A stretch of 64,000 nt of DNA from Minisyncoccota bacterium (GTDB lineage: Bacteria; Patescibacteriota; Minisyncoccia; UBA6257): contig JAQVJU010000002.1 in assembly GCA_028694995.1 (NCBI GenBank), positions 2,046 through 66,045 of the forward strand. The letters run 5' to 3'. Position numbers and translations under genes: made by a program. The notes below the pieces were generated by a model, which was given only the letters and a program-made list of their open reading frames with translations, was not told where the DNA came from and did no database searches. This document shows, piece by piece, positions 1 through 47,911 of the stretch; position 1 is the first letter of the stretch; each line of letters opens with the position of its first letter.

Positions 1-50
1 GGAATTGTCGGGTAATTAACTATTAAAACCAATAGTTACTTGGTTTTAAG

Positions 51-139
51 TTATCCCCAATAGACTTGACAAGGTTTTTATATTTGCTATACTAATAATG
101 CTGTCGTTTTTGGCTTGCCAAAGGCGACAGCATTTTTTT
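51..139 (+). repeat. Copy 1 of the repeated DnaA-box-like/promoter/hairpin module (TTATCCCCA variant - TTGACA - 16 nt - TATACT - hairpin GCTGTCG..CGACAGC - T7)
   Basis: Read directly. -35 TTGACA at 66-71, -10 TATACT at 88-93. Hairpin 100-131 followed by a T-tract. Near-identical to the modules at 2943, 5903, 6717 and 7563. Confidence 0.7.
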
Positions 140-257
140 ATCTCATATTATTTAGGAAGTTTTATATCTTTAATTCTTGACAAACTTATAATAAAGATAT
201 ATTATAACTCAATTAAGAACTTTGAAAACTTAATAAAAAAAAGAAAGGAGAGAAAAA

Positions 258-1379
258 ATGGAGAAGCTAATTGATTTTTTTCTATTTTTAATAGGAGTAA
301 GAAGAGAAAAGAAAATTCCTGTAAATTTTCAGCCGTCGGTTACTGTTTTAATCCCTGCTTACAAAGAAGAAGAAACAATAAAAGATACTATTTTAAGTAT
401 TCAGGCTCAGAGCTATCAAGTAGATGAAATTATTGTAATAGATGATTGCTCTAAGGACAAGACTGGTTTAATATCAAGATCTCTAGGGGCTAAAGTAGTT
501 CGTATCCCTAAAAATTCAGGGACTAAATCTAGGGCTCAAAATTTTGGTCTTAAGTTTGTTAAAACTGATTTAGTGATTACTGTTGATGCTGATACTATCC
601 TTGATCAAAAAGCGATAGAATTAATAATTCCTGCTATGAGTGATCGCAAAGTGCTTTCAGCTTGTGGGTTTGTTATTCCTCAAGTAATTAAAACTTTTTG
701 GGAAAGATGTCGCTTAATTCAGTATTTGTATTATATTAGTCTTAATAAAAATGCTCAATCTCACTGGCAGGTACCATTAGTGTCTTCAGGTTGTTTTTCA
801 GTTTTTAATACAAAGATGTTAAAAAAAATGGGTGGATTTCCTGAGGGGACGATAGTGGAGGATATGGATTTAACCTGGAGAGCCCATCTTGAAAAGAAAA
901 AAATTAAATTTATACCTGAAGCAGTTTGCTATCCAAAAGATCCAAATAATTGGCAACAATACAAGGCACAGGTAATGCGTTGGAATAGAGGATTTTTACA
1001 ATGTGTAAAAGAATATAAAGTATCATTGATAAAAAATCCTCGCTTATGCTTTTTTGTTGCTTGGTATCTTTTATCAGGGATTATCCAGCCTCTGTATTTA
1101 GGGTTTTTTATTTGGTATGTGTTTTGGTTTTTTTCAACAAAAGCCTATCTAGGGGAAGTAATTTTTATTTTAATATTTTTTGGACTTTTGTTGGAAATGT
1201 TAATTGTGTTTACTTTTGTTCTGATATCAGGAATTCGTTATAAGCACTTTAAAATAGCTTTAACCAGTTTTCCTTGCTATTGGTTAATAAGCCCAATTGA
1301 CACTTATTTGTTTGTAAATGCCCTAATACAAGAATGGGTTTTAGGGAGAAAACTTGAATCATGGGAAAAAGGGCATTGA
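258..1379 (+). CDS. Family 2 glycosyltransferase with C-terminal multi-pass membrane domain (processive polysaccharide synthase-like, PgaC/IcaA/cellulose-synthase-like architecture)
   Basis: N-terminal GT-A fold signatures (IPAYKEEETI, DDCSKD, VDAD = DXD). Hydrophobic C-terminal half with several predicted TM helices. RBS AAAGGAGAG upstream. Confidence 0.75.
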   Translation: MEKLIDFFLFLIGVRREKKIPVNFQPSVTVLIPAYKEEETIKDTILSIQAQSYQVDEIIVIDDCSKDKTGLISRSLGAKVVRIPKNSGTKSRAQNFGLKFVKTDLVITVDADTILDQKAIELIIPAMSDRKVLSACGFVIPQVIKTFWERCRLIQYLYYISLNKNAQSHWQVPLVSSGCFSVFNTKMLKKMGGFPEGTIVEDMDLTWRAHLEKKKIKFIPEAVCYPKDPNNWQQYKAQVMRWNRGFLQCVKEYKVSLIKNPRLCFFVAWYLLSGIIQPLYLGFFIWYVFWFFSTKAYLGEVIFILIFFGLLLEMLIVFTFVLISGIRYKHFKIALTSFPCYWLISPIDTYLFVNALIQEWVLGRKLESWEKGH

Positions 1380-1435
1380 AGGGAGGGATATACTTGATTG
1401 TAAAAAATATAAAAAAAGGAAAGGAGGTGAAATAA

Positions 1436-2209
1436 ATGTACGGAGGACCTCAAACTATATCTGGAAGTATAATTCATATTCTATGTCGTTACCCTATTTT
1501 AGTAGTTCCTATAGCTCTGGGCCTTATCTTTGGAATACCTAACTTATCTCAAGTTGCTGAAGATAGTTTACCTAGCTCAATGATAACTTTTGCTTTTGAT
1601 GATGGGTATTTTTCTACTTATGAAAAAGCTTTTCCTATTTTAGAAAAATATACATTTCCGGCTACGGTTTTTGTAATTTCTTCAGTAATTGGAGAACCAG
1701 GTCATATGACTGCGGAACAAATTCTAGAATTGGCAGATAAAGGATGGGAGATTGGTTCTCATACTGAAACTCATTCTGATTTAACTCAGCTTACTGATGA
1801 ACAATTAAAACATGAGCTTGTAAACTCAAAGCAACATCTTGAAGAACTGGGTTTAATAGTAAAGAACTTTGCCTCTCCTTATGGCAAGTATGACGAAAGG
1901 GTTATTAAAATGATAGCTAAGTATTATGATTCTCATCGAACCGCTTGGCCAGATGGGTTAAATGATTTACCCTTAGATAATTTAAATCGTTATTACTTGA
2001 AATCTGTTTCAGTTGAAGCTAGAACGACTATAGAAGAAGTGAAAGAGTGGGTAATAAAAGCAAAGAATGAAGGGAAATGGTTAATTCTCCTTTTCCATCG
2101 CATTGATGAAACAGGCGATTATAACTGGACCTCAAGGGATTTTGAAGAAATTGTTAAATTTGTGCACGAGGAAAAGTTTAAAGGAGTTTCAATTAAAGAA
2201 ATGAGGTGA
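1436..2209 (+). CDS. Polysaccharide deacetylase (NodB homology / CE4 family)
   Basis: N-terminal TM segment. CE4 motifs TFAFDDGY and GSHTETHSDL. RBS GGAGGTGA 7 nt upstream. Adjacent to the GT2 synthase. Confidence 0.8.
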   Translation: MYGGPQTISGSIIHILCRYPILVVPIALGLIFGIPNLSQVAEDSLPSSMITFAFDDGYFSTYEKAFPILEKYTFPATVFVISSVIGEPGHMTAEQILELADKGWEIGSHTETHSDLTQLTDEQLKHELVNSKQHLEELGLIVKNFASPYGKYDERVIKMIAKYYDSHRTAWPDGLNDLPLDNLNRYYLKSVSVEARTTIEEVKEWVIKAKNEGKWLILLFHRIDETGDYNWTSRDFEEIVKFVHEEKFKGVSIKEMR

Positions 2210-2355
2210 TGATTTTATAAAATGATAAAAGGGAAGATAAATCTTCCCTTTTTAATTTAAACCTTATATATTGACAAAATTGTATAAATGATATATAATC
2301 TTGATATATTTGAACTAGTAACTTGAAAATTAAAAAATGAAAGGAGGTGAAAGAA

Positions 2356-2898
2356 ATGAGAAAAAGATTGTTAATCTTAGTGGTTTTAATGGTATTATTC
2401 TTGGGTGCTTGTAGAGACGGAGCAATAATTCCTTCAGTGACAGAAGATATAGAGATTTGGGTAACTGGCTTTGAGCAAGAGGTATTCTGCAATAACGCTA
2501 AGGGTGTCACCAGGGTTTTTAATGGAGACTTACCTAAAGATTTGACAAGATGTTATGGTCCTCCTAGCTGTTGCCCTCCATGTAATTGCCCAGTATGTGA
2601 AGTATGTGAAGAATGCTCAGAATGTCCAACTTGCCCTTCTTGTGGACCTTGCTGCTGTTATTTGAAATGGGGAAATGTCTACGTTGATTACAAAATGAAG
2701 AATTTAGGGTTAAAGGATTTAACCGTTAAAAATGTTTGTTTTGAAATCACGTTTGAAGACAACACAAAAACTGTTAAATGCGTGGAATTACAAGAAGGTT
2801 TACTAGAGGGAGAAGTAAAAGGTAAACAAGCTAAATTCACTCTCTCTCCTGTCAAGAGAGTGATTTACGTTGTTGTGCAAAAAATAGAATATTATTAA
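2356..2898 (+). CDS. Cysteine-rich lipoprotein (signal peptide + lipobox LGAC; CxxC/CC cluster)
   Basis: Start chosen at the ATG preceded by AAGGAGGTGA. Lipobox L-G-A-C. A 30-residue tract CCPPCNCPVCEVCEECSECPTCPSCGPCCC. Confidence 0.55.
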   Translation: MRKRLLILVVLMVLFLGACRDGAIIPSVTEDIEIWVTGFEQEVFCNNAKGVTRVFNGDLPKDLTRCYGPPSCCPPCNCPVCEVCEECSECPTCPSCGPCCCYLKWGNVYVDYKMKNLGLKDLTVKNVCFEITFEDNTKTVKCVELQEGLLEGEVKGKQAKFTLSPVKRVIYVVVQKIEYY

Positions 2899-2942
2899 AA
2901 CCAAAAGGGACTATATTATATAGTCTCTTTTTCATTTTAAAA

Positions 2943-3031
2943 GTTATCCACAATAGACTTGACAAGGGATTTGGATTTGATATACTAATAATGCTGTCGT
3001 TTTTGGCTTGCCAAGGGCGACAGCATTTTTT
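2943..3031 (+). repeat. Copy 2 of the DnaA-box/promoter/hairpin module (TTATCCACA 2944-2952, TTGACA 2959-2964, TATACT 2981-2986, hairpin 2993-3024, T-tract)
   Basis: Read directly from the sequence. Confidence 0.7.
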
Positions 3032-3072
3032 ATTCCATAGTTTGCGAAATTATTAATTAATGAATAAAAGAC

Positions 3073-3199
3073 TTGACAATTTTTATTTATCATGTATACT
3101 GTTTTGTAGTGGGGTAAGCTTTTCCGGAAGAGCTTATAAAACCTATTTTCCAAAATTTTGGAGGTTTTAAAGTGGCGTTGAAAAACGCCACTTTTTTTT
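3073..3199 (+). ncRNA. Candidate small RNA: consensus sigma70 promoter (TTGACA 3073-3078, TATACT 3095-3100) driving a ~95-nt transcript that ends at the intrinsic terminator GTGGCG-TTGAAAAA-CGCCAC-T8 (3172-3199)
   Basis: Promoter spacing of 16 nt and a perfect terminator. An internal stem AAGCT-TTTCCGGAAG-AGCTT. No ORF above 9 codons. Confidence 0.4.
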
Positions 3200-3408
3200 A
3201 ACTTAATTCCTTGATTGTTTTAAAGAAGATCCTATTATTTATTGATAATATAATAATTAAGATTTACAAATTGAATTATTAAGTATTGATTAATAAAATT
3301 TTCTAATAATGATCTTTAAAATAACTCTTAAGAATTATTTTTTAAATTTAAAATTAAATTTTTAAAAATTTCCTTAAATTTGACAAATTTGTTTTTTATT
3401 TAAAAAAC

Positions 3409-3612
3409 TTGACAAGGACTTGACAAATAAAAAATAATAGAGTATCATGTAAGTACGGTGGGGTTCTCCCCTGGGTCTGCAAAGGCCCAGGGGAGACTAC
3501 TACTAAGTAGATAAACAATAAAAATGGTGGGATGCTCTCTTTTAAACAAATACAAAAGTTTATCTGCTTCCGAGGCAGATTAGTTAAATTGACGTTATTC
3601 GTCAATTTTTTT
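3409..3612 (+). ncRNA. Candidate structured small RNA (~160 nt): duplicated TTGACA (3409-3414, 3420-3425), 17-nt spacer, TATCAT (3443-3448), GC-rich stems, and terminator TTGACG-TTATTC-GTCAA-T7 (3589-3612)
   Basis: A strong 10-bp stem CTCCCCTGGG..CCCAGGGGAG, which is unusual against the AT-rich background. A second stem TCTGCTTC-CGA-GGCAGA. No plausible ORF. The antisense 69-aa ORF 3396..3605 is judged spurious. Confidence 0.45.
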
Positions 3613-3818
3613 AATTAACCACTAGATTAACTATTAGGGATTAAAAAAAGAATATTGCAGGAAGATTAGTGTTTGTGTTTTCCCCATATCAGAAATCCTC
3701 CTAATAGTTCATGATGGGACAATAGATCTATTAAAAGTGATTTTAATTTCCTTAATGATTAATTAAAAGATTATTTTGTTTCCTATGCATTTAATTATTT
3801 CAGATTTTAGTAAACATA

Positions 3819-4298
3819 ATGAATTTGATTAAACATAGAAAATTTTTACAATTATTATCATTTTTAGTAATAATAATTTGTTCTTTGTTATTTTTAATAA
3901 ATGATGTTGATGCTAAAAGAGGTTGTTGTTCTTGGCATGGCGGAGTATCTCATTGTGACTCATCGGTTGGGGGATATGTTTGTAATGATGGCACCTATAG
4001 TCCTTCTTGTACTTGCGGGGTTATAATCCCTGTTCCTATTCCTTCCCCAACTACTCTTGAGCCTACTACAACGACTACTAAACCTACAACTACAACAATA
4101 ATTGGTATAACACCCGCTGCTGTATTAGAAACAGAAATTCAAGAAAAAAACCTAGGAATAGAGGAAGAACTAGAATTTTCAGCTTCTGAAAAATTAATGG
4201 CACAAGTACATAAAGAAAACATTGGTATTTCTGCTTGGTGGTGGATAATAGGCATAGGGGCTATATCTTATTTGTTTGTCTATAAATTTAAAAAATAA
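3819..4298 (+). CDS. Secreted Cys/His-rich protein with Pro/Thr-rich linker and C-terminal TM anchor followed by basic tail (KFKK)
   Basis: N-terminal hydrophobic signal or anchor. Motif GCCSWHGGVSHCDSSVGGYVCNDGTYSPSCTC. Linker TTTTTKPTTTT. C-terminal TM segment. Confidence 0.5.
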   Translation: MNLIKHRKFLQLLSFLVIIICSLLFLINDVDAKRGCCSWHGGVSHCDSSVGGYVCNDGTYSPSCTCGVIIPVPIPSPTTLEPTTTTTKPTTTTIIGITPAAVLETEIQEKNLGIEEELEFSASEKLMAQVHKENIGISAWWWIIGIGAISYLFVYKFKK

Positions 4299-4334
4299 AA
4301 AACTAAAGGTCGAAAATTAATGAATTAAAAAAAT

Positions 4335-5846
4335 ATGAATAAAAAATTTCTTACAAAAACATTTGCAATTGCAATGGTATTAAGTTTATTACTTTCTAAT
4401 GGATTGATGTTAGGATTGGAGAGAGCAGAAGCAAAAGTAAGAAAAGAAGACCCTAGTAAAAATGGAAATGGGAATGGGAATGATGAATTATATCTTTGTC
4501 ATTTTGAAGATGAAGGAGATAATCCTTATACAAAGATACTAGGGTTTGAGAAGAATAGCATAGCTGGCGAGCATGATAAAGACGAAGATGATATTATTCC
4601 TAGTTATCTTTATACTTCAGACTGTGATGTGGAAAATCATAACTGTAAACTAAAAAAAATAGATTGGGGGAATTCTAAGACGCAAGGAAGTGTTTTGGGA
4701 GACTCTATTAATCTTGATGGGCATTTATGGCAAGGGTCACAAGAATTAGCTTCAATTATTGGGGATAGCACAAATATTAAGGTTTCTTTTTCAGATCCCC
4801 TTATGGCATATGTTATAGATCTTAAAATAAAAGAAAAAGATTCAAAAGGAAAAATATTATCTGAAAAAGATTATGCTTCTAAATGCCAAGGTCCAGAGGG
4901 TTGTACTCTTTCTCCGGAAGAAGGAATTAAGTTTTACTCTGTAAGTTGGGATCTGCAAAAAGTTAACAAATTTCACTATGAGTGTTATTATCCTGGTAAA
5001 AATTTGGAGAGTGGGCAAGACATTTTAAATAATAATTGCGAGGTTCCCTCAGAAAATGAAAATGGGGAAGGGAATGGGGAAGGGAATGGAGAAGGGGATG
5101 GAGAAGGGAATGGAGGAGGGAATGGAGAAGGAACTACAACTACTACAACAACAAGACCTGGTCCTACAGGTTCACATATTCCACCACAAGAAGCTCATGG
5201 GGAAGGCTCTTTAGGAGAACCTGGCCCTGGGGAGGGTATTGTAGCTGGTGCTGCTTGTGTTCCTTATATCCAAGAATATATTCAATATGGAGCTGATAAT
5301 GATCCATTTGAAGTTAGGAAATTACAAATCTTCTTAAATGGATATTTGGGATTGAATTTAGATGTTAATGGAATTTATGATTTAGAAACATTTGAAGCTG
5401 TAAAAACATTCCAACTTATGTTCAAGGATGATATTTTAGCTCCTTGGGTTGCAAATGGATGCTTACCTTCAAAAGAAATAGCTACGGGTTATGTTTATCG
5501 AACTACTAGTTGGGCGATTAATAAAGTTTTTTGCCCAGGAATGGAAATAGATATTTCTGATGAAATATGTTTTGGCTTAGGTGAAGGATTAGTTTTAGGA
5601 GAATCTATTGCCTTAGCTGATGATGGCTCAATGTCAGAAGGAGATATTTTAGATTTTCCTGTTAGTTCTGAACAAGAACCAGAAGAAGAAGTAATGGAAA
5701 TTTCAGAAACTGAAGATATAGAAACAACAGAATTAGAAGAAACAGAAGAAGAAACAGCAACTAATAAAGGAGCCATAATAGCTTTATTAGTTGTTTTAGC
5801 CTTAGGTGGCTTAGCTTACTTTATCTTTAGAGGAAAACGAACTTGA
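4335..5846 (+). CDS. Large secreted surface protein: signal peptide, GNGNGNG and GEGNGEGNG repeats, Thr7 linker, PG_binding_1-like domain, acidic E/T-rich tract, C-terminal TM anchor + RGKRT tail
   Basis: The segment VRKLQIFLNGYLGLNLDVNGIYDLETFEAVKTFQ matches the peptidoglycan-binding (PG_binding_1) consensus. The C-terminus AIIALLVVLALGGLAYFIFRGKRT forms a TM anchor plus basic tail. Confidence 0.6.
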   Translation: MNKKFLTKTFAIAMVLSLLLSNGLMLGLERAEAKVRKEDPSKNGNGNGNDELYLCHFEDEGDNPYTKILGFEKNSIAGEHDKDEDDIIPSYLYTSDCDVENHNCKLKKIDWGNSKTQGSVLGDSINLDGHLWQGSQELASIIGDSTNIKVSFSDPLMAYVIDLKIKEKDSKGKILSEKDYASKCQGPEGCTLSPEEGIKFYSVSWDLQKVNKFHYECYYPGKNLESGQDILNNNCEVPSENENGEGNGEGNGEGDGEGNGGGNGEGTTTTTTTRPGPTGSHIPPQEAHGEGSLGEPGPGEGIVAGAACVPYIQEYIQYGADNDPFEVRKLQIFLNGYLGLNLDVNGIYDLETFEAVKTFQLMFKDDILAPWVANGCLPSKEIATGYVYRTTSWAINKVFCPGMEIDISDEICFGLGEGLVLGESIALADDGSMSEGDILDFPVSSEQEPEEEVMEISETEDIETTELEETEEETATNKGAIIALLVVLALGGLAYFIFRGKRT

Positions 5847-5866
5847 AGGTTAGAAATTGGATAAAA

Positions 5867-5894
5867 ACAGGGCTAAATATAGCCCTGTTTTTTA
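5867..5894 (+). terminator. Intrinsic terminator of the 4335..5846 gene (ACAGGGCT-AAATAT-AGCCCTGT-T7)
   Basis: Perfect 8-bp GC-rich stem plus a T-tract. Confidence 0.7.
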
Positions 5895-5902
5895 TTTCTT
5901 AA

Positions 5903-5999
5903 GTTATCCACAAAAGACTTGACAAGGTTTTTATATTTGCTATACTATTAGTGCTGTCATTTAGAGAAGCTTGCTTCAATGAATGACAGCATTTTTTTT
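5903..5999 (+). repeat. Copy 3 of the module (TTATCCACA 5904-5912, TTGACA 5919-5924, TATACT 5941-5946, variant hairpin GCTGTCATT..AATGACAGC 5953-5990, T8)
   Basis: The stem is conserved and extended by compensatory changes while the loop is replaced. Confidence 0.7.
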
Positions 6000-6157
6000 A
6001 TAATTTTTTGATAAAAGAAGTGATTAGTCATCTCTTTTTTTATTTGTTAATTAATTAAAGATAGTTTTAATTTATATTGACTTTAAGTATTTAAAATGGT
6101 ATAATTATAAAAGGATAAAAGAGTTCTTTTAAAAATAAAAATAAGGAGGAAAAGAAA

Positions 6158-6694
6158 ATGGAAGAGAGAAAAAAGAAAGTTTTTATTTTAATTTTTGCTG
6201 TGGTTTTTATATTCATTTTAGTAGATTATGTAAATTGGAGATTATCCCATAATTGGGAGATTGTAGATACCAATTTACCAGTTGAAACCATAAACAGCAC
6301 CGTATGGAGAAGCGCAAGTATAGATATACTTGATCCTATCAAATCTCCTCCAAAAAGTTATGAGTATTCAAATCTTAGGATAGCGGCATTTAAGGTACGG
6401 TACCCTAAAGCTAAGGGAGGAGGATATGTTCATGAAGTTTTTCTTAGGGAGTGGTTTAAGAGGAGTAACTTAAAAGTTCGCTATACGGGCTTTGAAGGGA
6501 TACCGGATTTTTATATTGCTGTAGAATTCATACAGGGAAGAATGGAAATCATCAGTGATAGCAAGTTATATAATTATAAAGGAGAAATCTTTATAGAATT
6601 ATTTTCCAATAATAAGAATTTACTGGCTCAAAAAAGAATTAAGGTAAACATAAATAACAAACCGCCAGAGGTAAAAGAATTAACAGGGCTTTAA
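6158..6694 (+). CDS. Hypothetical N-terminally membrane-anchored protein, paralog A of a tandem pair
   Basis: Strong RBS AAGGAGGA. N-terminal TM helix. Shares the motifs YPK.K, NLK and F..V.FI.GR..I...Y.GEI.I.L with the 6967..7539 product. Confidence 0.5.
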   Translation: MEERKKKVFILIFAVVFIFILVDYVNWRLSHNWEIVDTNLPVETINSTVWRSASIDILDPIKSPPKSYEYSNLRIAAFKVRYPKAKGGGYVHEVFLREWFKRSNLKVRYTGFEGIPDFYIAVEFIQGRMEIISDSKLYNYKGEIFIELFSNNKNLLAQKRIKVNINNKPPEVKELTGL

Positions 6695-6706
6695 AGCCCT
6701 GTTTTT
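6683..6706 (+). terminator. Intrinsic terminator overlapping the stop codon of 6158..6694 (ACAGGGCT-TTAA-AGCCCTGT-T5)
   Basis: The stop codon TAA lies in the hairpin loop. Confidence 0.65.
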
Positions 6707-6716
6707 CATTTCTTGA

Positions 6717-6806
6717 GTTATCCACAAAAGACTTGACAAGGTTTTTAAATTTGCTATACTAATAATGCTGTCGTTTTTGGCTTGCCAGAAGCGGCAGCAT
6801 TTTTTT
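6717..6806 (+). repeat. Copy 4 of the module (TTATCCACA 6718-6726, TTGACA 6733-6738, TATACT 6755-6760, hairpin GCTGTCG..CGGCAGC with a U-G wobble, T7)
   Basis: Read directly from the sequence. Confidence 0.7.
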
Positions 6807-6966
6807 ATAATTTTTTGATAAAAGAGATGATTTATCATCTCTTTTTTAATGGTTAATTAATTAAAGATAGTTTTAATTTATATTGACTTTAATCATTTAA
6901 AATGGTATAATTATAAAAAGATAAAAGAGTTCTTTTAAAAATAAAAATTAAAGAGGAGAGAAAAAA

Positions 6967-7539
6967 ATGAAAAAGGTTTTTATAGTTATTCTAATTATAA
7001 TTATAGGGTTATTTTTAATAGATTTTATAGGTTATGTAATAAAATCAAGCTATAAAGAGAATAAGGAGCTGGGGGGAAGTTGGGAAATCGAAAGTTTAGA
7101 CCTGCCAATCATAATAAGAAAAAACTGTATCGTAGTGGGGGGTCCAAGTTGGGAACCAGAAGACCCTTTGCCCTCAAGAGTTGAAAGGGATGTATTTTTA
7201 GAAATGAGGGTAGCCAATTTTAGAATATACTACCCTAAAACAAAAAATATAGTCCATGAAATTGATCTCCAAATGTGGGAAAAGCAGGGAAACTTGAAGT
7301 TATATGTCGCTAGACCTGAAGAGTCGAACCCCTTCAAAATGAGTACTGTAAAGTTTATAGAGGGGAGAGTAGATATCTGGCTTAGAATGGAAGTCGGTAA
7401 GTATGAGGGGGAGATTCATATTCAGCTAATTAATAATGACGGGATATTAATAGGTGAAGGCAAGGCCTTTGTGGAAGTAAATATAGAAAAGGGGGTGCTA
7501 GAGATACTAGAAGAAGAATTTAATATAACAGGGTCTTAA
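6967..7539 (+). CDS. Hypothetical N-terminally membrane-anchored protein, paralog B of the tandem pair
   Basis: A ~150-bp upstream region, including a TTGACT-17-TATAAT promoter and RBS, is about 90% identical to that of 6158. The proteins are much more diverged than these flanks. Confidence 0.5.
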   Translation: MKKVFIVILIIIIGLFLIDFIGYVIKSSYKENKELGGSWEIESLDLPIIIRKNCIVVGGPSWEPEDPLPSRVERDVFLEMRVANFRIYYPKTKNIVHEIDLQMWEKQGNLKLYVARPEESNPFKMSTVKFIEGRVDIWLRMEVGKYEGEIHIQLINNDGILIGEGKAFVEVNIEKGVLEILEEEFNITGS

Positions 7540-7562
7540 GGCTCTGTTTTTATTATTTCTGA

Positions 7563-7652
7563 GTTATCCACAAAAGACTTGACAAGGTTTTTATATTTGC
7601 TATACTAATAATGCTGTCGTTTTTGGCTTGCCAGAAGCGGCAGCATTTTTTT
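7563..7652 (+). repeat. Copy 5 of the module (TTATCCACA 7564-7572, TTGACA 7579-7584, TATACT 7601-7606, hairpin 7613-7644, T7)
   Basis: Read directly from the sequence. Confidence 0.7.
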
Positions 7653-7744
7653 ATAATTCTTATTATTGACAAAAAGACAATAACAAGATATTATCTAAAT
7701 TAGATATTTAGTACTTTGAAAATTAAAAAAGGAGATATTAAAAA

Positions 7745-8826: not shown

Positions 8827-9891
8827 ATGAATTTATCAATTGGAATTGTGGGTTTGCCAAATGTGGGAAAATCTACTCTTTTTGAGATTATTACTAAAAA
8901 ACAAGTAGATAGGGAAAATTATCCTTTTTGTACGATAGAGCCTAATGTTGGTGTGGTGGCAGTGCCTGATATTCGGGTTGATAAATTAGCTCATTTAAAT
9001 CAATCAGAAAAAAAGATCTATACCACTGTAGAGTTTGTTGATATTGCTGGATTAGTTAAAGGAGCAAGTAAAGGAGAGGGTTTGGGTAATCAGTTTTTAG
9101 CTCAAATCAGAGAAACTGATGAGATTGTTTGCGTTTTAAGATGTTTTCAAAATGATAAAATTGTTAATACCTTGGATCAAATAGATCCATTATTGGAAAA
9201 AGAGATTTTAGAAACAGAATTGATTTTAAAAGATTTAGAAACAGTTAATAAAAGATTGACTTCTTTAGAAAAAGAAATCAAAACAGGAAAAAAAAGCATG
9301 ATGGAAGAAGAAAGAATATTAGCTAAGGCACAGGATTTATTGCAACAAGGCCAGATTCTTTTTGAACAAGAGTGGGAAGAAGAGGAAAAGAAAGTTCTTG
9401 AAACTTATCAATTATTAACATTAAAACCTAGATTGTATTTGTTAAATGGACAAGAGAGTGAAGTACCAGCTCATATCTTAGAAACTTTTAATAAGAATAA
9501 TTGGCCATATTTAATTATGGATGTGGCCATGGAATTAGAAACCATAGATTTATCTGAAAGCGATAGAATAGATCTTGGGTTATCGCCTCAATCAGAAATT
9601 AATACCTTGATTCAATCAACATACAAGTTATTGGATTTAATAACTTTTTTTACTATTGAATCTAATCAAACCAGAGCTTGGATTTTATTAAAAGGATTAA
9701 AAGCTCCTGATGCTGGGGGAGTAATTCATACAGATTTTCAAGAAAAATTCATTAAGGCTGAGATTATTAATTGGGAAAAACTATTAGAAGCTGGTTCTTG
9801 GAGTTTAGCTAGACAAAAAGGCTGGCTTCAATTAGAAGGTAAGGATTATGTGGTTCAAGATGGTGATGTGATTGTGTTTAAGCATGGATAA
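8827..9891 (+). CDS. ychF: Ribosome-binding ATPase YchF (Obg-family GTPase)
   Basis: G1 motif GIVGLPNVGKST. TGS-domain C-terminus ending DGDVIVFKHG. Confidence 0.9.
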   Translation: MNLSIGIVGLPNVGKSTLFEIITKKQVDRENYPFCTIEPNVGVVAVPDIRVDKLAHLNQSEKKIYTTVEFVDIAGLVKGASKGEGLGNQFLAQIRETDEIVCVLRCFQNDKIVNTLDQIDPLLEKEILETELILKDLETVNKRLTSLEKEIKTGKKSMMEEERILAKAQDLLQQGQILFEQEWEEEEKKVLETYQLLTLKPRLYLLNGQESEVPAHILETFNKNNWPYLIMDVAMELETIDLSESDRIDLGLSPQSEINTLIQSTYKLLDLITFFTIESNQTRAWILLKGLKAPDAGGVIHTDFQEKFIKAEIINWEKLLEAGSWSLARQKGWLQLEGKDYVVQDGDVIVFKHG

Positions 9892-18704: not shown

Positions 18705-18777
18705 GCTCCCGTAGCTCAATTGGTAGAGCAACAGCCTTTTAAGCTGGCGGTTGCGCGTTCAAGTCGCGCCGGGGGCA
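18705..18777 (+). tRNA. tRNA-Lys (anticodon UUU), CCA not encoded
   Basis: Cloverleaf folded by hand. Acceptor GCTCCCG/CGGGGGC, D-arm GCTC-AATTGGTA-GAGC, anticodon loop CTTTTAA (U33, UUU, A37), T-arm GCGCG-TTCAAGT-CGCGC, discriminator A. Confidence 0.85.
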
Positions 18778-28318: not shown

Positions 28319-29677
28319 ATGCAAAAAAAGAAACAAAATTTATCAAAATCTGTTAAAAAAACTAAAAAGACAACCAAGTCATTAAAAAGAAAAAAGATAG
28401 TAAAGAAAGCTCCTAAGAAAGCAAAGACTTTAAAAAAGAAGCCAGTAGTGAGAAAAAAAACAGTGGTAAAAAAGAAACCAATAGTGAAGAAGAAAATAAC
28501 AAAAAAGAAGCCTGCAGTAAGAAGGAAGCCTGTAGTGAAAAAGAAAAAAGTTGTAAAGAAAAAACAAGTATTAACAGGAACAAAAACACAAAAGAAAAAA
28601 GGAAAAGTAGATAAAGTAAAAGAACTAGTAGAAAGAGGAAAAACAAGACGATTTGTAACTCAAGATGAGATTTTAAAATTCTTTCCACGAATAGAAGAAG
28701 ATTTAGATTTTCTAGAACAGCTTTATGATGCCTTAGCAGAGGCAAATATTGAGGTAATAGAAAGTGGAGATTTATTAATACCTGATGCTGAGATAACTGA
28801 AAAAGAATTAAATGAAGCGGTTAAAGTTTCGCCAACTGATACAGTGTCTAGTAATGTGCAGTCATATTTAAGAGAAATAGGTAAAGTGCCATTACTTACT
28901 GTAGAAGAAGAAAGAAGTTTGGCTAAAAAAGTAGAAGAAGGTGATGAGCAGGCTAGAAAGAAAATGATTGAGGCTAATTTACGTTTGGTTGTTTCTATTG
29001 CTAAACGCTATATCGGCAGAAGCAGTAATTTGAATTTATTAGATTTAATTCAAGAAGGGAATATTGGTTTGTCAAAAGCAGTTAATAAATTTGATTACAA
29101 AAAAGGGTTTAAGTTTTCTACTTATGCCACTTGGTGGATTAGACAGGCGATTACCAGGGCTTTGGCTGATCAGGGGAGAACTATAAGAATTCCAGTGCAT
29201 ATGGTAGAAACAATTACCAAATATTTGAAAACCAGAAGGTTATTAGCTCAAACCTTAGGTCGGGATCCTTTACCAGAAGAAATTGCTCAAGAAATGGGAA
29301 AAGATGTAGAAGAGATTCTTTACTTAATGCAAATTTCTCAAAGAACCTCATCTTTGAATCAACCTTTAGGCGATGAAGAAAGTGGTAGTGAATTAGCTGA
29401 TTTCATATCAGATACAAAAACAATCACCCCAGATAATTATGCAACCAGAGAACTTCTTAAAAGTGAATTAAGAAAGATTATGGAAGAATTGTCAGAAAGG
29501 GAAAGAGAGATTATTAGGATGAGATTTGGTTTGGATGATGGGATGACTCATACTTTAGAAGAGGTGGGTAAGGCTTTTGGGGTTACCAGAGAAAGAATCA
29601 GGCAGATAGAAGCTAAGACGTTGGAAAAATTAAAAGACCATGCTGAAGCTAAAAGGTTAAAGGAATTTTTAAAATAG
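28319..29677 (+). CDS. rpoD: RNA polymerase sigma factor RpoD with lysine-rich N-terminal extension
   Basis: Regions 2-4 conserved ([13 protein letters not shown], region 4 [23 protein letters not shown]). About 100 N-terminal residues of K-rich P/V-KKK repeats. Confidence 0.9.
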
Positions 29678-44708: not shown

Positions 44709-45030
44709 ATAATATAGAGCAATTAACTCAGCTTTTGTTAGAGATAATTAAAGATATTGGTCATTTTGTTAATGAAACATTTATGACTGGGTTTGTTTCT
44801 AAGATTGTATTATTAATTGGAGGATTTTTAAAAACCATAGCTAGTTTTCTTATTGTTGGTTTAGAAGCAGTAATAAAGTTTTTAGAATATTTTGTAAAAT
44901 AAATTTGTTTTTATTTAAAAGACACATAATTTTAGGGGAGTAGCCTTGACAACGCATTTTAATGCGTTAATATAAATAGAGTATAGTTCGCATAATTTAA
45001 GTTAAGCGACTTGTAATATAATCTATAATT

Positions 45031-45990
45031 ATGAAAAGAAGCAATCAACCAATCCCCTCCTATTTAAATGATTTTTTAGATTGGTTAGAAATACAAAAAG
45101 GATTATCATCTAAGACACAAGAAAACTATGCAAGGTTTTTAAAAAAGTTTTTAGATTGGTTAAAAGAAAACAAGATGGAAGAGCTTAAACCTCATGAGCT
45201 ATCTTCTGATCATATATGGGATTATCGGGTTTTTCTATCTCGTCAATCTGTTAGTCATTTAGGTAGACCTCTTAAAAAATCCACCCAGAATTATTATTTG
45301 ATAGCTTTAAGGTCTTTATTAAATTTCTTTGCTGATAAAGATATTCTTTCATTACCAGCTGAGAAAATAGAATTAGCCAGAGATAAAGGAGATAAACAAA
45401 TAAGGTTCTTAGATTTAGAACAATTGGAAAGATTATTTTCTGCGCCTGATATTTCAAAAATTCAAGGATTAAGAGATAGAGCTATCTTAGAAATTTTCTT
45501 TTCAACAGGAATGCGTATTTCAGAATTAACTTCATTAAATCGTGAACAAATCAAAATCAAACCCAACATTACTGATTTAGAATTAAGTATTATTGGTAAA
45601 GGTGGCCGGATGAGAACTGTATATATCTCAGAAAGAGCTTTGTCTTGGTTAAAAAAATACTTAGATTTACGAGAAGATAAAGAAAAAGCTTTGTTTGTAA
45701 ATCATCAAATTAAAAAAGGTGTTCCAAAAAGATTAACTAATCGCTCTATAGAAAAATCAATGAAAAAGTATGTGATTATGGCTGGTTTACCTTTAAATAC
45801 TACGCCTCATGTTTTAAGACATTCTTTTAGCACTGATTTATTAGCTCAAGGTGTTGATATTAGAATTCTTCAAGAATTTTTAGGTCATAAGAATATTGCA
45901 GCTACTCAGATTTACGCTCATGTAACTAATAAGAAACTTAGAGAAATTCACCGGAAGTTTCATGGTGGTAGAAAACAAAAATTACTTTAA
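45031..45990 (+). CDS. Tyrosine site-specific recombinase (XerC/XerD/phage-integrase family)
   Basis: N-terminal SAM-like domain. Catalytic R...HxxR...Y (HVLRHSFSTDLL, IYAHV). Followed by the bidirectional terminator at 45998-46023. Confidence 0.8.
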   Translation: MKRSNQPIPSYLNDFLDWLEIQKGLSSKTQENYARFLKKFLDWLKENKMEELKPHELSSDHIWDYRVFLSRQSVSHLGRPLKKSTQNYYLIALRSLLNFFADKDILSLPAEKIELARDKGDKQIRFLDLEQLERLFSAPDISKIQGLRDRAILEIFFSTGMRISELTSLNREQIKIKPNITDLELSIIGKGGRMRTVYISERALSWLKKYLDLREDKEKALFVNHQIKKGVPKRLTNRSIEKSMKKYVIMAGLPLNTTPHVLRHSFSTDLLAQGVDIRILQEFLGHKNIAATQIYAHVTNKKLREIHRKFHGGRKQKLL

Positions 45991-45997
45991 AAGAAAA

Positions 45998-46023
45998 AAC
46001 CGGCTTGGATTAACCAGCCGGTT
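45998..46023. terminator. Bidirectional intrinsic terminator (A-tract - AACCGGCTTGG-ATTAA-CCAGCCGGTT - T-tract) between convergent genes
   Basis: GC-rich 10-bp stem flanked by A and T tracts. Confidence 0.65.
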
Positions 46024-46028
46024 ATTAT

Positions 46029-46334
46029 TTAATATTCGTTATATCCTCCTTTTTGTATAATTTCTTTGCTTTTTTTACCTTTTTCATTTCCACAAATATA
46101 AATCCTATAATTATTTCTTGCCTCCGGAGAAAGTTTTCCTCCTTCAGGAATATTCAAGTCTATATCATATATTTCCTTCATATCTCGAAAGGCTTTTTTC
46201 CAGGTTTTCTTAACTTTCTTTAAAATTTTCTGGAAAATAATTCGGTCTTCCTTTTTGTGGTAAGTGGATAAACTTAGATTTAGTTCTCCTGATTCTAAAT
46301 TCATCCACCCCTCTAGCCATATTAACCTTTTCAT
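46029..46334 (-). CDS. Small hypothetical protein
   Basis: ORF with RBS AAAGGAGGTAAAAG. Confidence 0.3.
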   Translation of the reverse strand: MKRLIWLEGWMNLESGELNLSLSTYHKKEDRIIFQKILKKVKKTWKKAFRDMKEIYDIDLNIPEGGKLSPEARNNYRIYICGNEKGKKSKEIIQKGGYNEY

Positions 46335-46346
46335 CTTTTACCTCCT

Positions 46347-46595
46347 TTATTTTTTATAAACTTGATAATCCGCACTAAAAGGCACAAAGGTAGACTCATA
46401 ATATCCCTTAGCCCTGTTATACTTCCTTGCAGCTATTTTCTTAGCTTGGGCTAAGGAGAACCCACCTTGCCAGATGTGATACTCATCATCAGGCTCGATC
46501 ACTATCAGGTGGTATACAAATGGCCATTTTCTACTCTGGCTTTTCCTTTCTGGAATCGAGAATAATTTCAATTGCTCTTGGAATTTAGAATCCAT
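46347..46595 (-). CDS. Small hypothetical protein
   Basis: ORF with a GAGG RBS. Co-oriented with the 46029 ORF. Confidence 0.3.
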   Translation of the reverse strand: MDSKFQEQLKLFSIPERKSQSRKWPFVYHLIVIEPDDEYHIWQGGFSLAQAKKIAARKYNRAKGYYESTFVPFSADYQVYKK

Positions 46596-46735
46596 TTGCT
46601 TTTCCTCTCTTTCTTTTTAAATTTTCAAAATACTGATATTATTATATCAGTTATAAAATATTTTGTCAATGGAAAGTAAATGGTAAATCAGTAAAAAATA
46701 TGATAAAATGTTTTAAGTAAAAGATTAATTCAAAT

Positions 46736-47911
46736 ATGAGAGTTAGTTATTCTAGTTTAGAAAACTTTAAACAGTGCCCTCTAAAGTATAAATATTCACA
46801 AATAGATAAATTAAAAGAGCCTAAAAGCAAAGAGGCTGTTTTTGGCACTTATATCCACAAAGTTCTTAAATGGTTTTATCAAAAAGACCCTCACTTCCCT
46901 ACTCTAGATGCTTTATTAGATTATTATAAAGAATCTTGGCCTAAAAAATCAGAAGGATTTGAATGGCAAGATCCAGAAGAAGAAAATTCATATTTTAAAG
47001 AAGGAATTAGAATCTTAGAAGAATATTATAAAACTAATATCCCCCACCAGACTTCTATCTTGGATTTGGAAACTAGGTTTGAGGTTACCATAGATGAAGA
47101 TCCAGACAAACCTAATAAAAAACACATTTTAACTGGTATTATTGACCGAATAGATAAATTACCTGATGGGAGAATGGAGATAATAGATTACAAGACTGGT
47201 AAACGAATTGCTTCTCAAAGAGAAACAGATTCTAGTGCCCAATTATCTTTGTATGCTATTGGAGTTAAAAATCGTTGGCCCAGAACAGATTTAAAAAATC
47301 TGTCTTTAAGTTTGTATTTTCTTAAATTTAATGAAAAGATTCAATCTCAAAGAACAGAAGAAGATTTAGAAAAAAGCAAAGAAGAAGTTATTAAAACAAT
47401 TCATAAGATAGAAAAAAGTAGTTTTGAACCCAGGCCATCGCCTTTATGTGGTTGGTGCGGTTATCGGAATATTTGTCCAATTTGGAAACACTTGTATGAA
47501 ATAGAAAATCAAATCAATGGAGAAAATGTTAAAGAAAAAATAGATGAATACTTTAAGCTCAAAGAAAAAAAAGAGAAAATAGAAGAAGAGCTTTGTAATT
47601 TAAAAAATTGCATAGAAGATTATAGCCATGAAAAAGGTCTAAAGAGAGTTTTTGGAGAAAATGGGTATTTTAGTCGTACGGTTCATAACAAAGTTTCATA
47701 CAATAAAAAACAATTAAAAGAAGTATTAGAGCCTTTAGGAAAATGGGAAGAAATCCTAGGCATAGACCAAAAAAGACTAGACAAGGTTTTAAAAGAAATC
47801 CCTCAAGAATTAAGAGATAAGGTAAAAGCAGCTGAGAAAATAGAAAAAAAATATAAATATCTCACTTCAAATAATGTAAGCAAGAAAGAATTAGAAGAAG
47901 AATTAGAATAA
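46736..47911 (+). CDS. PD-(D/E)XK nuclease superfamily protein, Cas4/RecB-like with predicted Fe-S cluster (1 N-terminal + 3 C-terminal Cys)
   Basis: Motifs GIIDRID, EIIDYKTGK and a Q..S.Y-like segment. N-terminal Cys in FKQCP plus C-terminal CGWCGYRNICP. Confidence 0.6.
   Translation: MRVSYSSLENFKQCPLKYKYSQIDKLKEPKSKEAVFGTYIHKVLKWFYQKDPHFPTLDALLDYYKESWPKKSEGFEWQDPEEENSYFKEGIRILEEYYKTNIPHQTSILDLETRFEVTIDEDPDKPNKKHILTGIIDRIDKLPDGRMEIIDYKTGKRIASQRETDSSAQLSLYAIGVKNRWPRTDLKNLSLSLYFLKFNEKIQSQRTEEDLEKSKEEVIKTIHKIEKSSFEPRPSPLCGWCGYRNICPIWKHLYEIENQINGENVKEKIDEYFKLKEKKEKIEEELCNLKNCIEDYSHEKGLKRVFGENGYFSRTVHNKVSYNKKQLKEVLEPLGKWEEILGIDQKRLDKVLKEIPQELRDKVKAAEKIEKKYKYLTSNNVSKKELEEELE

What the first reader, a model, noticed from the sequence alone, without database searches (positions are those of the whole stretch)
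3409..3612. Orphan promoter-to-terminator unit #2: GC-rich structured ~160-nt RNA candidate in an otherwise very AT-rich gap
Duplicated -35 hexamers TTGACA-AGGAC-TTGACA, a 17-nt spacer and TATCAT precede a region containing a 10-bp GC-rich stem CUCCCCUGGG...CCCAGGGGAG. A second stem UCUGCUUC-CGA-GGCAGA follows, then a terminator UUGACG-UUAUUC-GUCAA-U7. GC-rich perfect stems stand out against about 25% GC surroundings and suggest selection for structure. I could not match it by eye to SRP, 6S, tmRNA or RNase P signatures. The only ORF here is antisense (3396..3605, 69 aa) and looks spurious.
Basis: seen in the sequence. Interest (0 to 1): 0.55.

Follow-up and report, generated by a model that had tools for sequence, protein, structure and literature searches.

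The report
Leader RNA before surface-protein genes
The promoter-to-terminator unit is real and belongs to a small, uncatalogued RNA family of ultra-small (CPR/Paceibacterota) bacteria, but it most likely acts as a switch-like leader, with a tiny reading frame ending at a terminator, in front of cell-surface protein genes rather than as a free-standing structured RNA.

Summary
All the described signals are present. A near-consensus promoter (TTGACA x2, 17 nt, TATCAT) is followed by a 14-bp GC hairpin, a second hairpin and a strong intrinsic terminator. Together they define a ~158-nt transcript (about 3455-3612) in 5-25% GC flanks. No Rfam family matches it.

I found homologues in seven other lineages of related Paceibacterota. 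Each sits head-to-tail upstream of a gene, almost always one for a secreted or surface protein.

Conserved features:
- a 5'-terminal ACGGUGGGG
- a stable 5' hairpin that is built from different sequences in different copies
- a second (A/G)UG-GGR motif
- the AUCUGC/GCAGAU hairpin
- the terminator

It starts at a GUG/AUG-GGR motif and ends at, or reads through, the terminator stem. In the window it is 3524-3583, with its stop 2 nt before the stem. No antiterminator exists.

Best reading (confidence about 0.45): a leader-ORF/terminator attenuator for the operon 3819-5846. Rivals are a trans-acting sRNA or a leader bound by a protein. The evidence is comparative only, the family is shallow, and covariation is weak.

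The parts
3409..3448 (+). Promoter. It has duplicated -35 TTGACA boxes (3409-3414 and 3420-3425), a 17-nt spacer and -10 TATCAT (3443-3448). The block ATAGAGTAT (3437-3445) is conserved in all close family copies. A third TTGACA lies at 3381-3386.
   Evidence: 11/12 matches. Alignments show TTGAC-17-TAGAGTATyrT conserved in L011, L025, L035, L049, L051 and L064.
3455..3463 (+). 5' motif ACGGUGGGG. It begins 7 nt after the -10 box, so it is the predicted transcript 5' end. It is invariant in every family copy.
   Evidence: GUGGGG also lies 9-10 nt after the -10 of two other near-consensus promoters in the window: unit 1 at 3109 and rpmA at 48281.
3465..3496 (+). GC-rich 14-bp hairpin, UCUCCCCUGGGUCU-GCAA-AGGCCCAGGGGAGA. 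A stable 5'-proximal hairpin is present in all full copies, but it is made from different sequences and pairing partners.
   Evidence: z -2.5 to -5.4 in six lineages. One search shows C-G to U-G and U-G to C-G changes in strain L005. One search shows the C-rich strand is homologous across copies while its partner flips side.
3524..3583 (+). Leader ORF (AUG 3524, GUG 3527, stop UAG 3581-3583) encoding MVGCSLLNKYKSLSASEAD. It starts at the second motif, AUGGUGGGA, and its stop ends 2 nt before the terminator stem.
   Evidence: an equivalent ORF is open in all six close lineages. It has 0 in-frame stops, against 6 and 7 in the other frames; in the distant copy L014, a 42-codon ORF starting at GUG-GGG reads through the terminator (P(open) 0.011).
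3562..3580 (+). Hairpin AUCUGC-UUCCGAG-GCAGAU inside the leader ORF. The stem sequence is conserved and the loop is free to vary. It may be an RNA polymerase pause hairpin (inferred).
   Evidence: 97.9% of cells paired, but only one compensatory pair. The hairpin is degenerate in L011A.
3586..3612 (+). Intrinsic terminator AAAUUGACG-UUAUU-CGUCAAUUU plus a U-run. It is preceded by the conserved linker GAUUAnUUrA.
   Evidence: 100% of cells paired, with A-U / G-U / G-C variation at one pair; hairpin energy -7 to -13 kcal/mol, with no competing antiterminator (at most 3.3 kcal/mol).
3613..3818 (+). AT-rich spacer between the terminator and the next gene. It holds no promoter-like site on the + strand.
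   Evidence: no + strand promoter match between 3449 and 3824.
3819..5846 (+). Presumed regulated operon. It holds a 159-aa Cys-rich secreted protein (3819-4298) and a 503-aa protein with a peptidoglycan-binding domain (4335-5846). The 5'-UTR motif AGGTCGAAAA at 4307-4316 is shared with the leaders of homologous loci.

Best explanation
The unit is the 5' leader, a transcription attenuator, of the downstream secreted/surface-protein operon (3819-5846) in a Paceibacterota (CPR) bacterium.

Proposed sequence of events:
1. A strong promoter starts transcription at about A3455.
2. The RNA opens with the conserved ACGGUGGGG and a very stable hairpin. These may act as a 5'-end module for stabilisation or factor binding; this role is inferred.
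3. A short leader ORF follows (3524-3583). It contains a conserved hairpin (3562-3580) and stops 2 nt before an intrinsic terminator (3586-3612).
4. If a ribosome translates the leader ORF close behind RNA polymerase, it reaches the stop codon and covers the 5' arm of the terminator. The hairpin then cannot form, and transcription reads through into the surface-protein genes.
5. If translation of the leader is absent, late or blocked, the terminator forms and only the ~158-nt RNA is made.

What is shown and what is inferred:
- Shown: the signals, their conservation, the open frame and its end point, and the genomic placement.
- Inferred: that the ORF is translated, that the terminator is leaky, and what physiological signal is sensed. 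The signal could be translation capacity or NTP supply, or a factor binding the repeated ACGGUGGG motif that overlaps the start codon.
For: Genomic placement:
- The family exists beyond the window's own species, which is represented by L005, L017, L060 and L069-L072. Other copies are L011 A and B, L025, L064 (two copies), L035, L049/L051 and L014.
- All copies are co-oriented with, and 78-206 nt upstream of, the next gene.
- The upstream gene has its own terminator.
- No + strand promoter-like site lies between the leader terminator and the gene, in the window or in L011 and L025. L035 has only one weak 9/12 match.

Downstream genes (signal peptides read):
- camelysin/TasA-like Peptidase_M73 proteins with a SipW-like signal peptidase
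- 1368-1470-aa proteins with SpaA and PG_binding domains
- the window's PG_binding protein
- all carry signal peptides

Leader ORF:
- It is open in every close lineage and ends between 3 nt before and 6 nt inside the AAUUG core of the terminator's 5' arm.
- There are 0 in-frame stops, against 6 and 7 in the other frames. P(open) is 0.08-0.27 per copy.
- In L014, a 42-codon ORF in 85% AT sequence reads through the terminator (P = 0.011).
- The start codon is kept as GUG, AUG (L011A) or AUG-GUG (window, L064 second copy).
- L011A compared with L025 shows CUG>UUA and AAG>AAA synonymous changes and UAA>UGA, while the RNA hairpin is lost.
- Indels shift the frame between copies, yet the frame stays open. 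This fits selection for translation itself rather than for the peptide.
- L025/L064 and L049/L051 differ within the ORF only by synonymous changes.

Other:
- Lack of a Shine-Dalgarno sequence is normal here: 47 of 64 genes in the window have none.
- There is no antiterminator.
Against: - There is no expression or ribosome data.
- Only about 8 lineages are known and they are related, so the ORF statistics are not independent.
- Conserved nucleotides (GUUUAUCUGC, GCAGAUUA) are read in three different frames. This also fits an RNA-level function.
- Two of the three frames stop at the conserved linker anyway, so the position of the stop is weak evidence.
- The second L064 copy has an in-frame UAA at codon 8.
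- The start is GUG in most copies.
- The model does not explain why 9 nt (ACGGUGGGG), rather than only a start codon, are invariant. The same GUGGGG box follows the rpmA promoter, where it starts only a 5-codon frame.
- In the window the next gene is 206 nt away.
- In L014 the leader is followed by a second terminator and ychF rather than a surface-protein gene.
- The terminator is strong, with 9 bp and 7 U.
Confidence: 0.45

Rival explanations
1. It is a free-standing, trans-acting small RNA of about 158 nt. It would be made from its own strong promoter and ended by its own terminator. The invariant 5' ACGGUGGGG would be the seed or protein-binding end, and the hairpins would give stability. 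Its position next to surface-protein genes would be incidental, or would reflect co-inheritance in a variable genomic island.
For: - It has a complete promoter and a strong terminator.
- The fold is very stable.
- The 5' motif is invariant and mostly unpaired in several copies.
- The copy in L014 is not followed by a surface-protein gene.
- The window copy is 206 nt from the next gene.
- Conserved nucleotides are read in different frames.
Against: - All 9 or more copies are co-oriented with, and directly upstream of, a gene that lacks a recognisable promoter of its own.
- The central ~60 nt has neither conserved sequence nor conserved structure, but keeps an open frame.
- The 5' module alone also occurs 35 nt in front of a surface-protein gene, without any terminator (L025:8177).
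- The DNA downstream of the terminator is also conserved as part of the same leader (AGGUCGA motif).
Confidence: 0.25
2. It is a protein- or factor-controlled leader. The two or three copies of (A)CGGUGGG(G/A) would be binding sites for an RNA-binding regulator or for an antitermination factor. This would resemble LoaP/EAR-like processive antitermination or a PyrR/TRAP-like attenuation protein. Binding would decide whether RNA polymerase passes the terminator. The ORF would be secondary, or would be the thing the factor occludes.
For: - The motif is repeated: at the 5' end, in the apical loop of the hairpin in L011B, L035 and L049, and at the ORF start.
- It is conserved well beyond a start codon.
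- No RNA antiterminator exists, so something else must overcome a strong terminator.
- Long surface-protein and polysaccharide operons are typical clients of processive antitermination. This is established knowledge for EAR, LoaP and RfaH, and was not tested here.
Against: - No candidate regulator gene is linked to the copies.
- The number and position of the motifs vary. The window has two, and L014 lacks the mid copy.
- The ORF statistics are not explained by this model.
Confidence: 0.15
3. It is a tiny protein-coding gene. The transcript would be an mRNA for a functional 18-24-residue peptide, for example a secreted or regulatory peptide linked to the SipW/TasA-like systems.
For: - The frame is open in all close copies.
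- MGILF.K... and ...VYLP.KQII are shared by some copies, and synonymous changes occur between close pairs.
Against: - Frameshifts give unrelated C-termini in the window, L049 and L035/L011B.
- The window peptide shares only the MG start with the others.
- The L014 ORF is unrelated in sequence.
- The peptide has no signal sequence and no hydrophobic segment.
Confidence: 0.05
4. It is a divergent copy of a known housekeeping or regulatory RNA: SRP RNA, 6S, tmRNA, RNase P or a riboswitch.
For: None beyond its size and GC-rich stems.
Against: - No Rfam 15 family reaches its threshold in the window or in six homologous loci. With E<=10 on 2850-3850, only chance-level hits appear.
- The 5' and 3' ends do not pair as in 6S.
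- There is no SRP domain IV motif and there are no RNase P or tmRNA signatures.
- The element has multiple copies per genome (L011, L064).
Confidence: 0.02

Closest known systems
Translation-coupled attenuators of E. coli pyrBI and pyrE (UTP-sensitive attenuation; established knowledge, not tested here)
   Same: A short ORF in the leader runs up to or through an intrinsic terminator. In pyrE it is the end of the upstream ORF. No alternative antiterminator hairpin is needed, because a ribosome close behind RNA polymerase physically prevents the terminator hairpin. U-rich tracts precede the terminator.
   Different: There is no link to pyrimidine genes; the clients are secreted and surface proteins. 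The leader ORF is much shorter (18-24 codons, 42 in L014). There is an additional invariant 5' motif and a GC hairpin. The sensed signal is unknown and nothing has been shown experimentally.
Leader-peptide attenuators of amino-acid operons (trpL, hisL, thrL, leuL; Rfam leader families)
   Same: The order is promoter, short leader ORF, a hairpin inside the leader that could act as a pause site, an intrinsic terminator, and then the structural genes.
   Different: There is no run of regulatory codons. There is no mutually exclusive 2:3 antiterminator. There is no Rfam match. The downstream genes are not biosynthetic.
Processive-antitermination and 5'-stabiliser leaders of surface or matrix operons (EAR RNA and LoaP leaders; 5' stem-loops of ompA and S-layer mRNAs; established knowledge)
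   Same: It is a long structured leader with a stable promoter-proximal hairpin, in front of abundant surface-protein or matrix genes. Terminators lie inside the leader.
   Different: There is no sequence or structure similarity to EAR (no Rfam hit). No NusG-paralogue gene is linked. In several copies the hairpin is not flush with the 5' end.
Terminator-ended trans-acting sRNAs
   Same: It has its own promoter, a length of about 160 nt, 3' hairpins and a U-tail.
   Different: It has a fixed position and orientation before a gene. The centre is a conserved ORF rather than a conserved structure. The 5' module also occurs fused directly to an mRNA (L025:8177).

Membership tests
Known Rfam families (SRP, 6S, tmRNA, RNase P, riboswitches, leaders) | Covariance-model score at or above the family's gathering threshold | tested here: not met
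   (whole window: only a tRNA at 18705-18777). (E<=10 on 2850-3850: only chance-level hits, none over 3455-3612 near threshold). (six homologous loci: only tRNAs).
Translation-coupled (pyrBI/pyrE-type) attenuator | Leader ORF that ends at, or reads through, the intrinsic terminator | tested here: met
   The stop ends between 3 nt before and 6 nt inside the AAUUG core of the terminator's 5' arm in six lineages. L014 reads through the terminator. One degenerate copy (the second L064 copy) has a premature in-frame stop.
Translation-coupled (pyrBI/pyrE-type) attenuator | The leader ORF is actually translated, and read-through depends on that translation | not testable with these tools
   This needs ribosome profiling, reporters or coupled in vitro assays.
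Translation-coupled (pyrBI/pyrE-type) attenuator | Control of pyrimidine-biosynthesis genes through UTP-sensitive pausing | tested here: not met
   The downstream genes encode secreted and surface proteins. So it may work like this class but is not a member of it.
trp/his-type leader-peptide attenuator | Mutually exclusive antiterminator that pairs with the terminator's 5' arm | tested here: not met
   upstream pairing of the 5' arm gains at most 3.3 kcal/mol, against -7 to -13 for the terminator. No conserved partner was found.
trp/his-type leader-peptide attenuator | Cluster of codons for the regulating amino acid | tested here: not met
   the peptides have no repeated diagnostic codon. Only the second codon is conserved, as Gly (GGG/GGA).
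Trans-acting sRNA | Independent transcript that is not continuous with the downstream mRNA | not testable with these tools
   The promoter and terminator are present. Whether the terminator is complete cannot be computed.
   Hairpin 3 and the terminator are 99% paired, but only 2 pairs show compensatory change and 50 of 500 shuffles do as well. The 5' hairpin is kept with different sequences but cannot be aligned column by column. The central region has no shared structure.

The most novel reading that the evidence does not exclude
This would be a CPR-specific regulatory device. Expression of host-contact and surface proteins (TasA/camelysin-like fibres, SpaA-like giants) would be gated by a leader ORF abutting a terminator. 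It would work together with an invariant 5'-terminal tag, ACGGUGGGG, that is reused as the ORF start context and also marks other strong promoters such as rpmA. The tag would be recognised by a still unknown factor or ribosomal site. That would tie surface-protein output to the translational or nucleotide status of an organism that depends on a host for its building blocks.
Probability: 0.2. Interest if true: 0.6.

Novelty: new member of a known kind. Interest (0 to 1): 0.45.

Why it matters
Almost nothing is known about gene regulation in CPR/Patescibacteria. They have tiny genomes and few recognisable regulators, and they live attached to hosts by surface structures.

A conserved leader sits in front of several kinds of gene that are likely to be abundant surface components: TasA/camelysin-like proteins, SipW-processed proteins, and giant proteins with SpaA and PG-binding domains. 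It gives a concrete, testable handle on how these genes are controlled. It also adds a family missing from RNA databases.

The practical lesson for annotation is that such 'orphan' promoter-terminator units in AT-rich genomes should be checked for short sense ORFs that end at the terminator. The scope is limited: the family was found only in one narrow clade.

Tried and rejected
Searches that gave little or nothing:
- Rfam scans found nothing.
- A genome-contig scan with the 3' motif CAGATTANTTRAATTGRCGTT gave only the window's own species, Candidatus Paceibacterota isolate STE_68 (L017), plus 4 chance hits.
- Two viral-contig scans found nothing.
- Synteny through YchF showed that the region upstream of ychF is variable. 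Relatives L006-L010, L013, L078 and L080 have no copy.
- A search anchored on the Cys-rich lipoprotein returned only the same species complex.
- Homologues of the 159-aa protein share only a Cys-rich domain.
- Two literature searches found no description of this element.

Ideas considered and dropped:
- The window's 12-bp long-range helix is not conserved.
- An antiterminator or riboswitch expression platform was not found.
- A first ORF starting at the 5' motif varies from 6 to more than 51 codons in GC-rich sequence, so there is no evidence for it.
- The antisense 69-aa ORF is interrupted in relatives.
- A resemblance of the minus strand (GGAAGCAG) to SRP domain IV is not supported by any covariance-model hit.
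- CsrA-type GGA sites are not consistently present in the 5' motif.
- T-box-like pairing of UGGUGGGG with a tRNA 3' end would need the acceptor stem to unwind, and has no other T-box features.
- A second promoter in front of the AGGUCGA motif has inconsistent spacing between copies.

Full report

Yes. The sequence shows TTGACA at 3409-3414 and 3420-3425, with a third copy at 3381-3386. A 17-nt spacer and TATCAT at 3443-3448 follow, scoring 11 of 12 consensus positions.

A 14-bp GC-rich hairpin lies at 3465-3496. A second hairpin, AUCUGC/GCAGAU, lies at 3562-3580. An intrinsic terminator occupies 3586-3608, followed by seven U.

The transcript 3453-3616 folds at -59.5 kcal/mol. Dinucleotide shuffles average -34.6, giving z = -6.4, and 0 of 200 shuffles fold as well. 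Local GC is 55-65% over the stem and 5-25% in the flanks.

The antisense 69-aa ORF is spurious. It is broken in the nearest strain and in the other copies.

**2. Context**

The window comes from a Patescibacteria (CPR) genome of the Pacebacteria/Paceibacterota group.
- YchF (8827-9891) has its best hits there.
- The lipoprotein 2347-2898 is 100% identical to an NCBI 'Candidatus Pacebacteria' protein on a 170-kb contig.
- The nearest GTDB genome is Candidatus Paceibacterota isolate STE_68.

The 920-bp gap 2899-3818 holds three consecutive promoter-to-terminator units.
- Unit 0 (2940-3041) is a member of a 5-copy repeat.
- Unit 1 is 3073-3204.
- Unit 2 is the finding.

**3. Not a known RNA**

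- Rfam 15 at gathering thresholds finds only a tRNA in the window.
- At E<=10 on 2850-3850, only chance-level hits appear.
- Six homologous loci give only tRNAs.
- Two literature searches found no description.

**4. Homologues**

Close strains are 97-100% identical: L001-L005, L017, L060 and L069-L072. In L005 the two substitutions in the GC stem are C-G to U-G and U-G to C-G. Four substitutions cluster in the loop of the second hairpin.

More distant copies:
- L011 comes from an organism whose YchF is 83% identical. It carries two diverged copies, at L011:1098-1300 and 2365-2568.
- A metagenome scan with ATAGAGTAT-N(8-14)-ACGGTGGGG returned 49 loci. L025, L064, L035, L049, L051, L031 (truncated) and L060 are true members. 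The rest are unrelated sequences, mostly of higher GC.
- L064 carries a second, degenerate copy. L025 carries a short variant with only the 5' module, 35 nt before a gene.
- A still more distant copy lies at L014:9636-9830, in an organism whose YchF is 74% identical.
- Relatives L006-L010, L013, L078 and L080 lack it, so the family is sporadic and narrow.

**5. Anatomy of the family**

(a) Promoter: TTGAC-17-(ATAGAG)TATyrT.

(b) ACGGUGGGG, invariant, starting 7 nt after the -10 box. It is presumably the transcript 5' end.

(c) A stable hairpin in the first ~50 nt of every full copy, with z from -2.5 to -5.4. It is built differently in each lineage.
- The block YGGUGGGG-yyCUCyyC is homologous across copies.
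- Its C-rich strand pairs with a downstream G-rich strand in the window.
- It pairs with an upstream G-rich strand in L011B, L035 and L049, where a second CGGUGGGG then sits in the apical loop.

(d) An A-rich stretch, then a further (A/C/U)(G/A)UG-GGR motif.

(e) An AU-rich segment without shared structure.

(f) GUUUAUCUGC-loop-GCAGAUUAnUUrA.

(g) The terminator AAUUGrCG/CGyCAAUU plus a U-run.

The 12-bp long-range helix of the window's MFE structure is not conserved.

Covariation in (f) and (g) is weak. Pairing is 99%, but only two compensatory pairs exist and 50 of 500 shuffles do as well.

**6. The overlooked ORF**

In every close lineage an ORF starts at the motif in (d) and runs to the foot of the terminator.

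| Copy | Peptide |
|---|---|
| window | (M)VGCSLLNKYKSLSASEAD |
| L011A | MGKSNEEFILIAGIKVYLFQKQII |
| L011B | MEFLFFKNKKGSICLKQIT |
| L025 / L064 | MGILFSKIKNNRVYLPRKQII |
| L035 | MGILFPKTKKGFICLMQII |
| L049 / L051 | MGILFLKINKRVYLPQADYSN |

Evidence that the frame is maintained:
- The window ORF spans 3524-3583, with its stop 2 nt before the terminator stem.
- In-frame stops number 0. The other two frames have 6 and 7.
- Mononucleotide shuffles keep the frame open with P = 0.08-0.27 per copy.
- The start is GUG in most copies, AUG in L011A, and AUG-GUG in the window and the second L064 copy.
- L011A compared with L025 shows Leu CUG>UUA, Lys AAG>AAA and stop UAA>UGA, while hairpin (f) decays.
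- L025/L064 and L049/L051 differ inside the ORF only synonymously.
- In L014 the mid motif is gone. A 42-codon ORF starting at GUG-GGG in the first hairpin reads through the whole terminator in 85% AT sequence. P(open) is 0.011, and the other frames have 2 and 5 stops.

Caveats:
- The lineages are related.
- Conserved nucleotides are read in three different frames.
- Two of the three frames stop at the conserved linker anyway.
- One copy has a premature in-frame UAA.

Absence of a Shine-Dalgarno sequence is normal here. Of 64 genes in the window, 47 lack one.

**7. No alternative structure**

I folded each copy up to the terminator loop. Pairing of the 5' arm with upstream sequence gains at most 3.3 kcal/mol, whereas the terminators are worth -7 to -13 kcal/mol. 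A trp-type or riboswitch-type switch is therefore not supported.

**8. Genomic association**

Every copy is co-oriented with the next gene and 78-206 nt upstream of it. The upstream gene has its own terminator. No + strand promoter-like site lies between the leader terminator and the gene, in the window or in L011 and L025. L035 has only one weak 9/12 match, which reuses the terminator arm as its -35.

Downstream genes:
- camelysin/TasA-like Peptidase_M73 proteins, followed by a SipW-like signal peptidase (L035, L049, L051)
- 1368-1470-aa proteins with SpaA and PG_binding domains (L025, L011B)
- a 297-aa secreted protein (L011A)
- in the window, a 159-aa Cys-rich secreted protein and a 503-aa PG_binding protein

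The DNA after the terminator is also conserved between loci. It carries the motif AGGUCG(A/G), which in the window lies at 4307-4316, just before the 503-aa gene. In L014 the leader is followed by a second terminator and ychF.

**9. Mechanism**

The best-supported reading is a leader-ORF/terminator attenuator.
- A ribosome translating the leader ORF close behind RNA polymerase arrives at the stop codon. From established knowledge of ribosome footprints, it then covers the 9-nt 5' arm of the terminator, which allows read-through.
- Without coupled translation, the terminator forms.
- The conserved hairpin inside the ORF could be a pause site that synchronises the two machines, as in classical attenuators. 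This is inference.
- The invariant ACGGUGGGG and the 5' hairpin are not explained by this model alone. They may stabilise the 5' end or bind a factor.
- Because the same motif overlaps the ORF start, a factor binding it could set the level of leader translation. This is speculation.

Rivals:
- A trans-acting sRNA: complete transcription unit, invariant 5' end, and the L014 context.
- A protein-dependent or processive antitermination leader: repeated motif and no RNA antiterminator.
- A tiny peptide gene. This is unlikely because the frame shifts between copies.
- A known RNA. This is excluded at Rfam sensitivity.

**10. Comparison with known systems**

It works most like the pyrBI/pyrE translation-coupled attenuators. 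Those have an ORF running up to or through the terminator and no antiterminator. It is not a member of that class, because the genes differ and nothing is known about UTP sensing.

It fails two defining features of trp/his-type attenuators: the antiterminator and the regulatory codons. It shares only its general placement with EAR/LoaP leaders and with 5' stabiliser hairpins.

**11. Verdict**

This is a real, conserved and uncatalogued element. I rate it a new member of a known kind, the cis-acting leader/attenuator, with an unexplained conserved 5' tag.

Interest is moderate (0.45). It is relevant to the poorly known regulation of CPR surface proteins. The family is narrow, the evidence is purely comparative, and the mechanism is inferred.

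Noticed in passing
window 47-148, 2940-3041, 5900-6001, 6714-6815, 7560-7661; also L011:110-232, L014:8841-8953 and 9535-9622, L064 (reverse strand, about 1851-1930 in oriented coordinates), L078:6690-6830: This is a five-copy ~100-nt repeat. Each copy has a perfect DnaA-box-like TTATCCACA, then 5 nt, TTGACA, 17 nt and TATACT. A 38-nt hairpin (UGCUGUCGUUUUUGGCUUGCCAnnGGCGrCAGCA) and a U-run follow immediately. So a consensus promoter fires straight into a terminator, giving a ~45-nt RNA. It is conserved across several related species, and some copies carry an extra hairpin. It lies upstream of small secreted-protein genes, which often have a second promoter. Its function is unknown.
   Followed up: partly
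window 3073-3204: Unit 1 is a shorter promoter-to-terminator unit, about 100 nt long (-34.6 kcal/mol, z -5.2). Its 5' end, AGUGGGGU plus a hairpin, and its terminator, AGUGGCGUU, resemble the unit-2 family and the second L064 copy. GUG-GGG is followed at once by UAA. A 7-codon UUG ORF preceded by GGAGG-like sequence runs into the terminator loop. It may be a degenerate paralogue.
   Followed up: partly
window 48243-48286 (promoter of rpmA, L27 gene 48319-48615); also 3109 and 3458: GTGGGG occurs 13 times in the 64 kb. Ten of these were judged by eye from their sequence context to lie in coding sequence; this was not checked against ORF coordinates. The three intergenic ones all lie 9-10 nt downstream of the -10 box of a near-consensus promoter: unit 1, unit 2 and rpmA. 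This suggests a G-rich start-site or 5'-end box for strong promoters in this organism.
   Followed up: partly
window 4307-4316; L011:1340-1346, 2582-2588, 2614-2620; L025 about 668 and 700; L014:8998 and 9877: The motif AGGUCG(A/G)AAAA recurs in A-rich 5' UTRs 19-40 nt before start codons of surface-protein genes. In L014 it also precedes an HSP20 gene. It sometimes occurs twice, 31 nt apart. Its role is unknown.
   Followed up: no
window 2347-2898 versus L069/L070:6001-6666 and L077:590-1189: The Cys/Pro/Glu-rich lipoprotein upstream of the gap is only 54-63% identical between strains whose adjacent intergenic DNA is about 97% identical. It is a hypervariable surface protein. It is the conserved left neighbour of the leader family in the window, L011, L035 and L049.
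   Followed up: partly
window, all genes: Only 17 of 64 ORFs of at least 100 aa have a Shine-Dalgarno-like sequence. Most start codons are preceded by A/U-rich, unstructured sequence.
   Followed up: yes
L025:8177-8230: This is a short variant of the leader. It has the promoter, ACGGUGGGG-UUU-UGGUGGGGCCCUUC, and then the AUG of another signal-peptide protein 35 nt later. It has no leader ORF and no terminator. So the 5' module is separable from the attenuator module.
   Followed up: partly
window 5050-5143 and 28432-28600: There are in-frame tandem repeats inside genes. One has a 12-nt period (ATGGGGAAGGGA-like units) in the 503-aa PG_binding protein. The other has an 18-nt period and is Lys/Glu/Ser-rich, within the ORF 28319-29677.
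   Followed up: no
window 1-45000 versus 45000-64000: Almost all genes up to about 45 kb are on the + strand, with positive GC skew. Beyond about 45 kb, strands are mixed and the cumulative skew flattens. Together with the cluster of TTATCCACA boxes at 47-7572, this may indicate proximity to a replication landmark. I did not pursue this.
   Followed up: no
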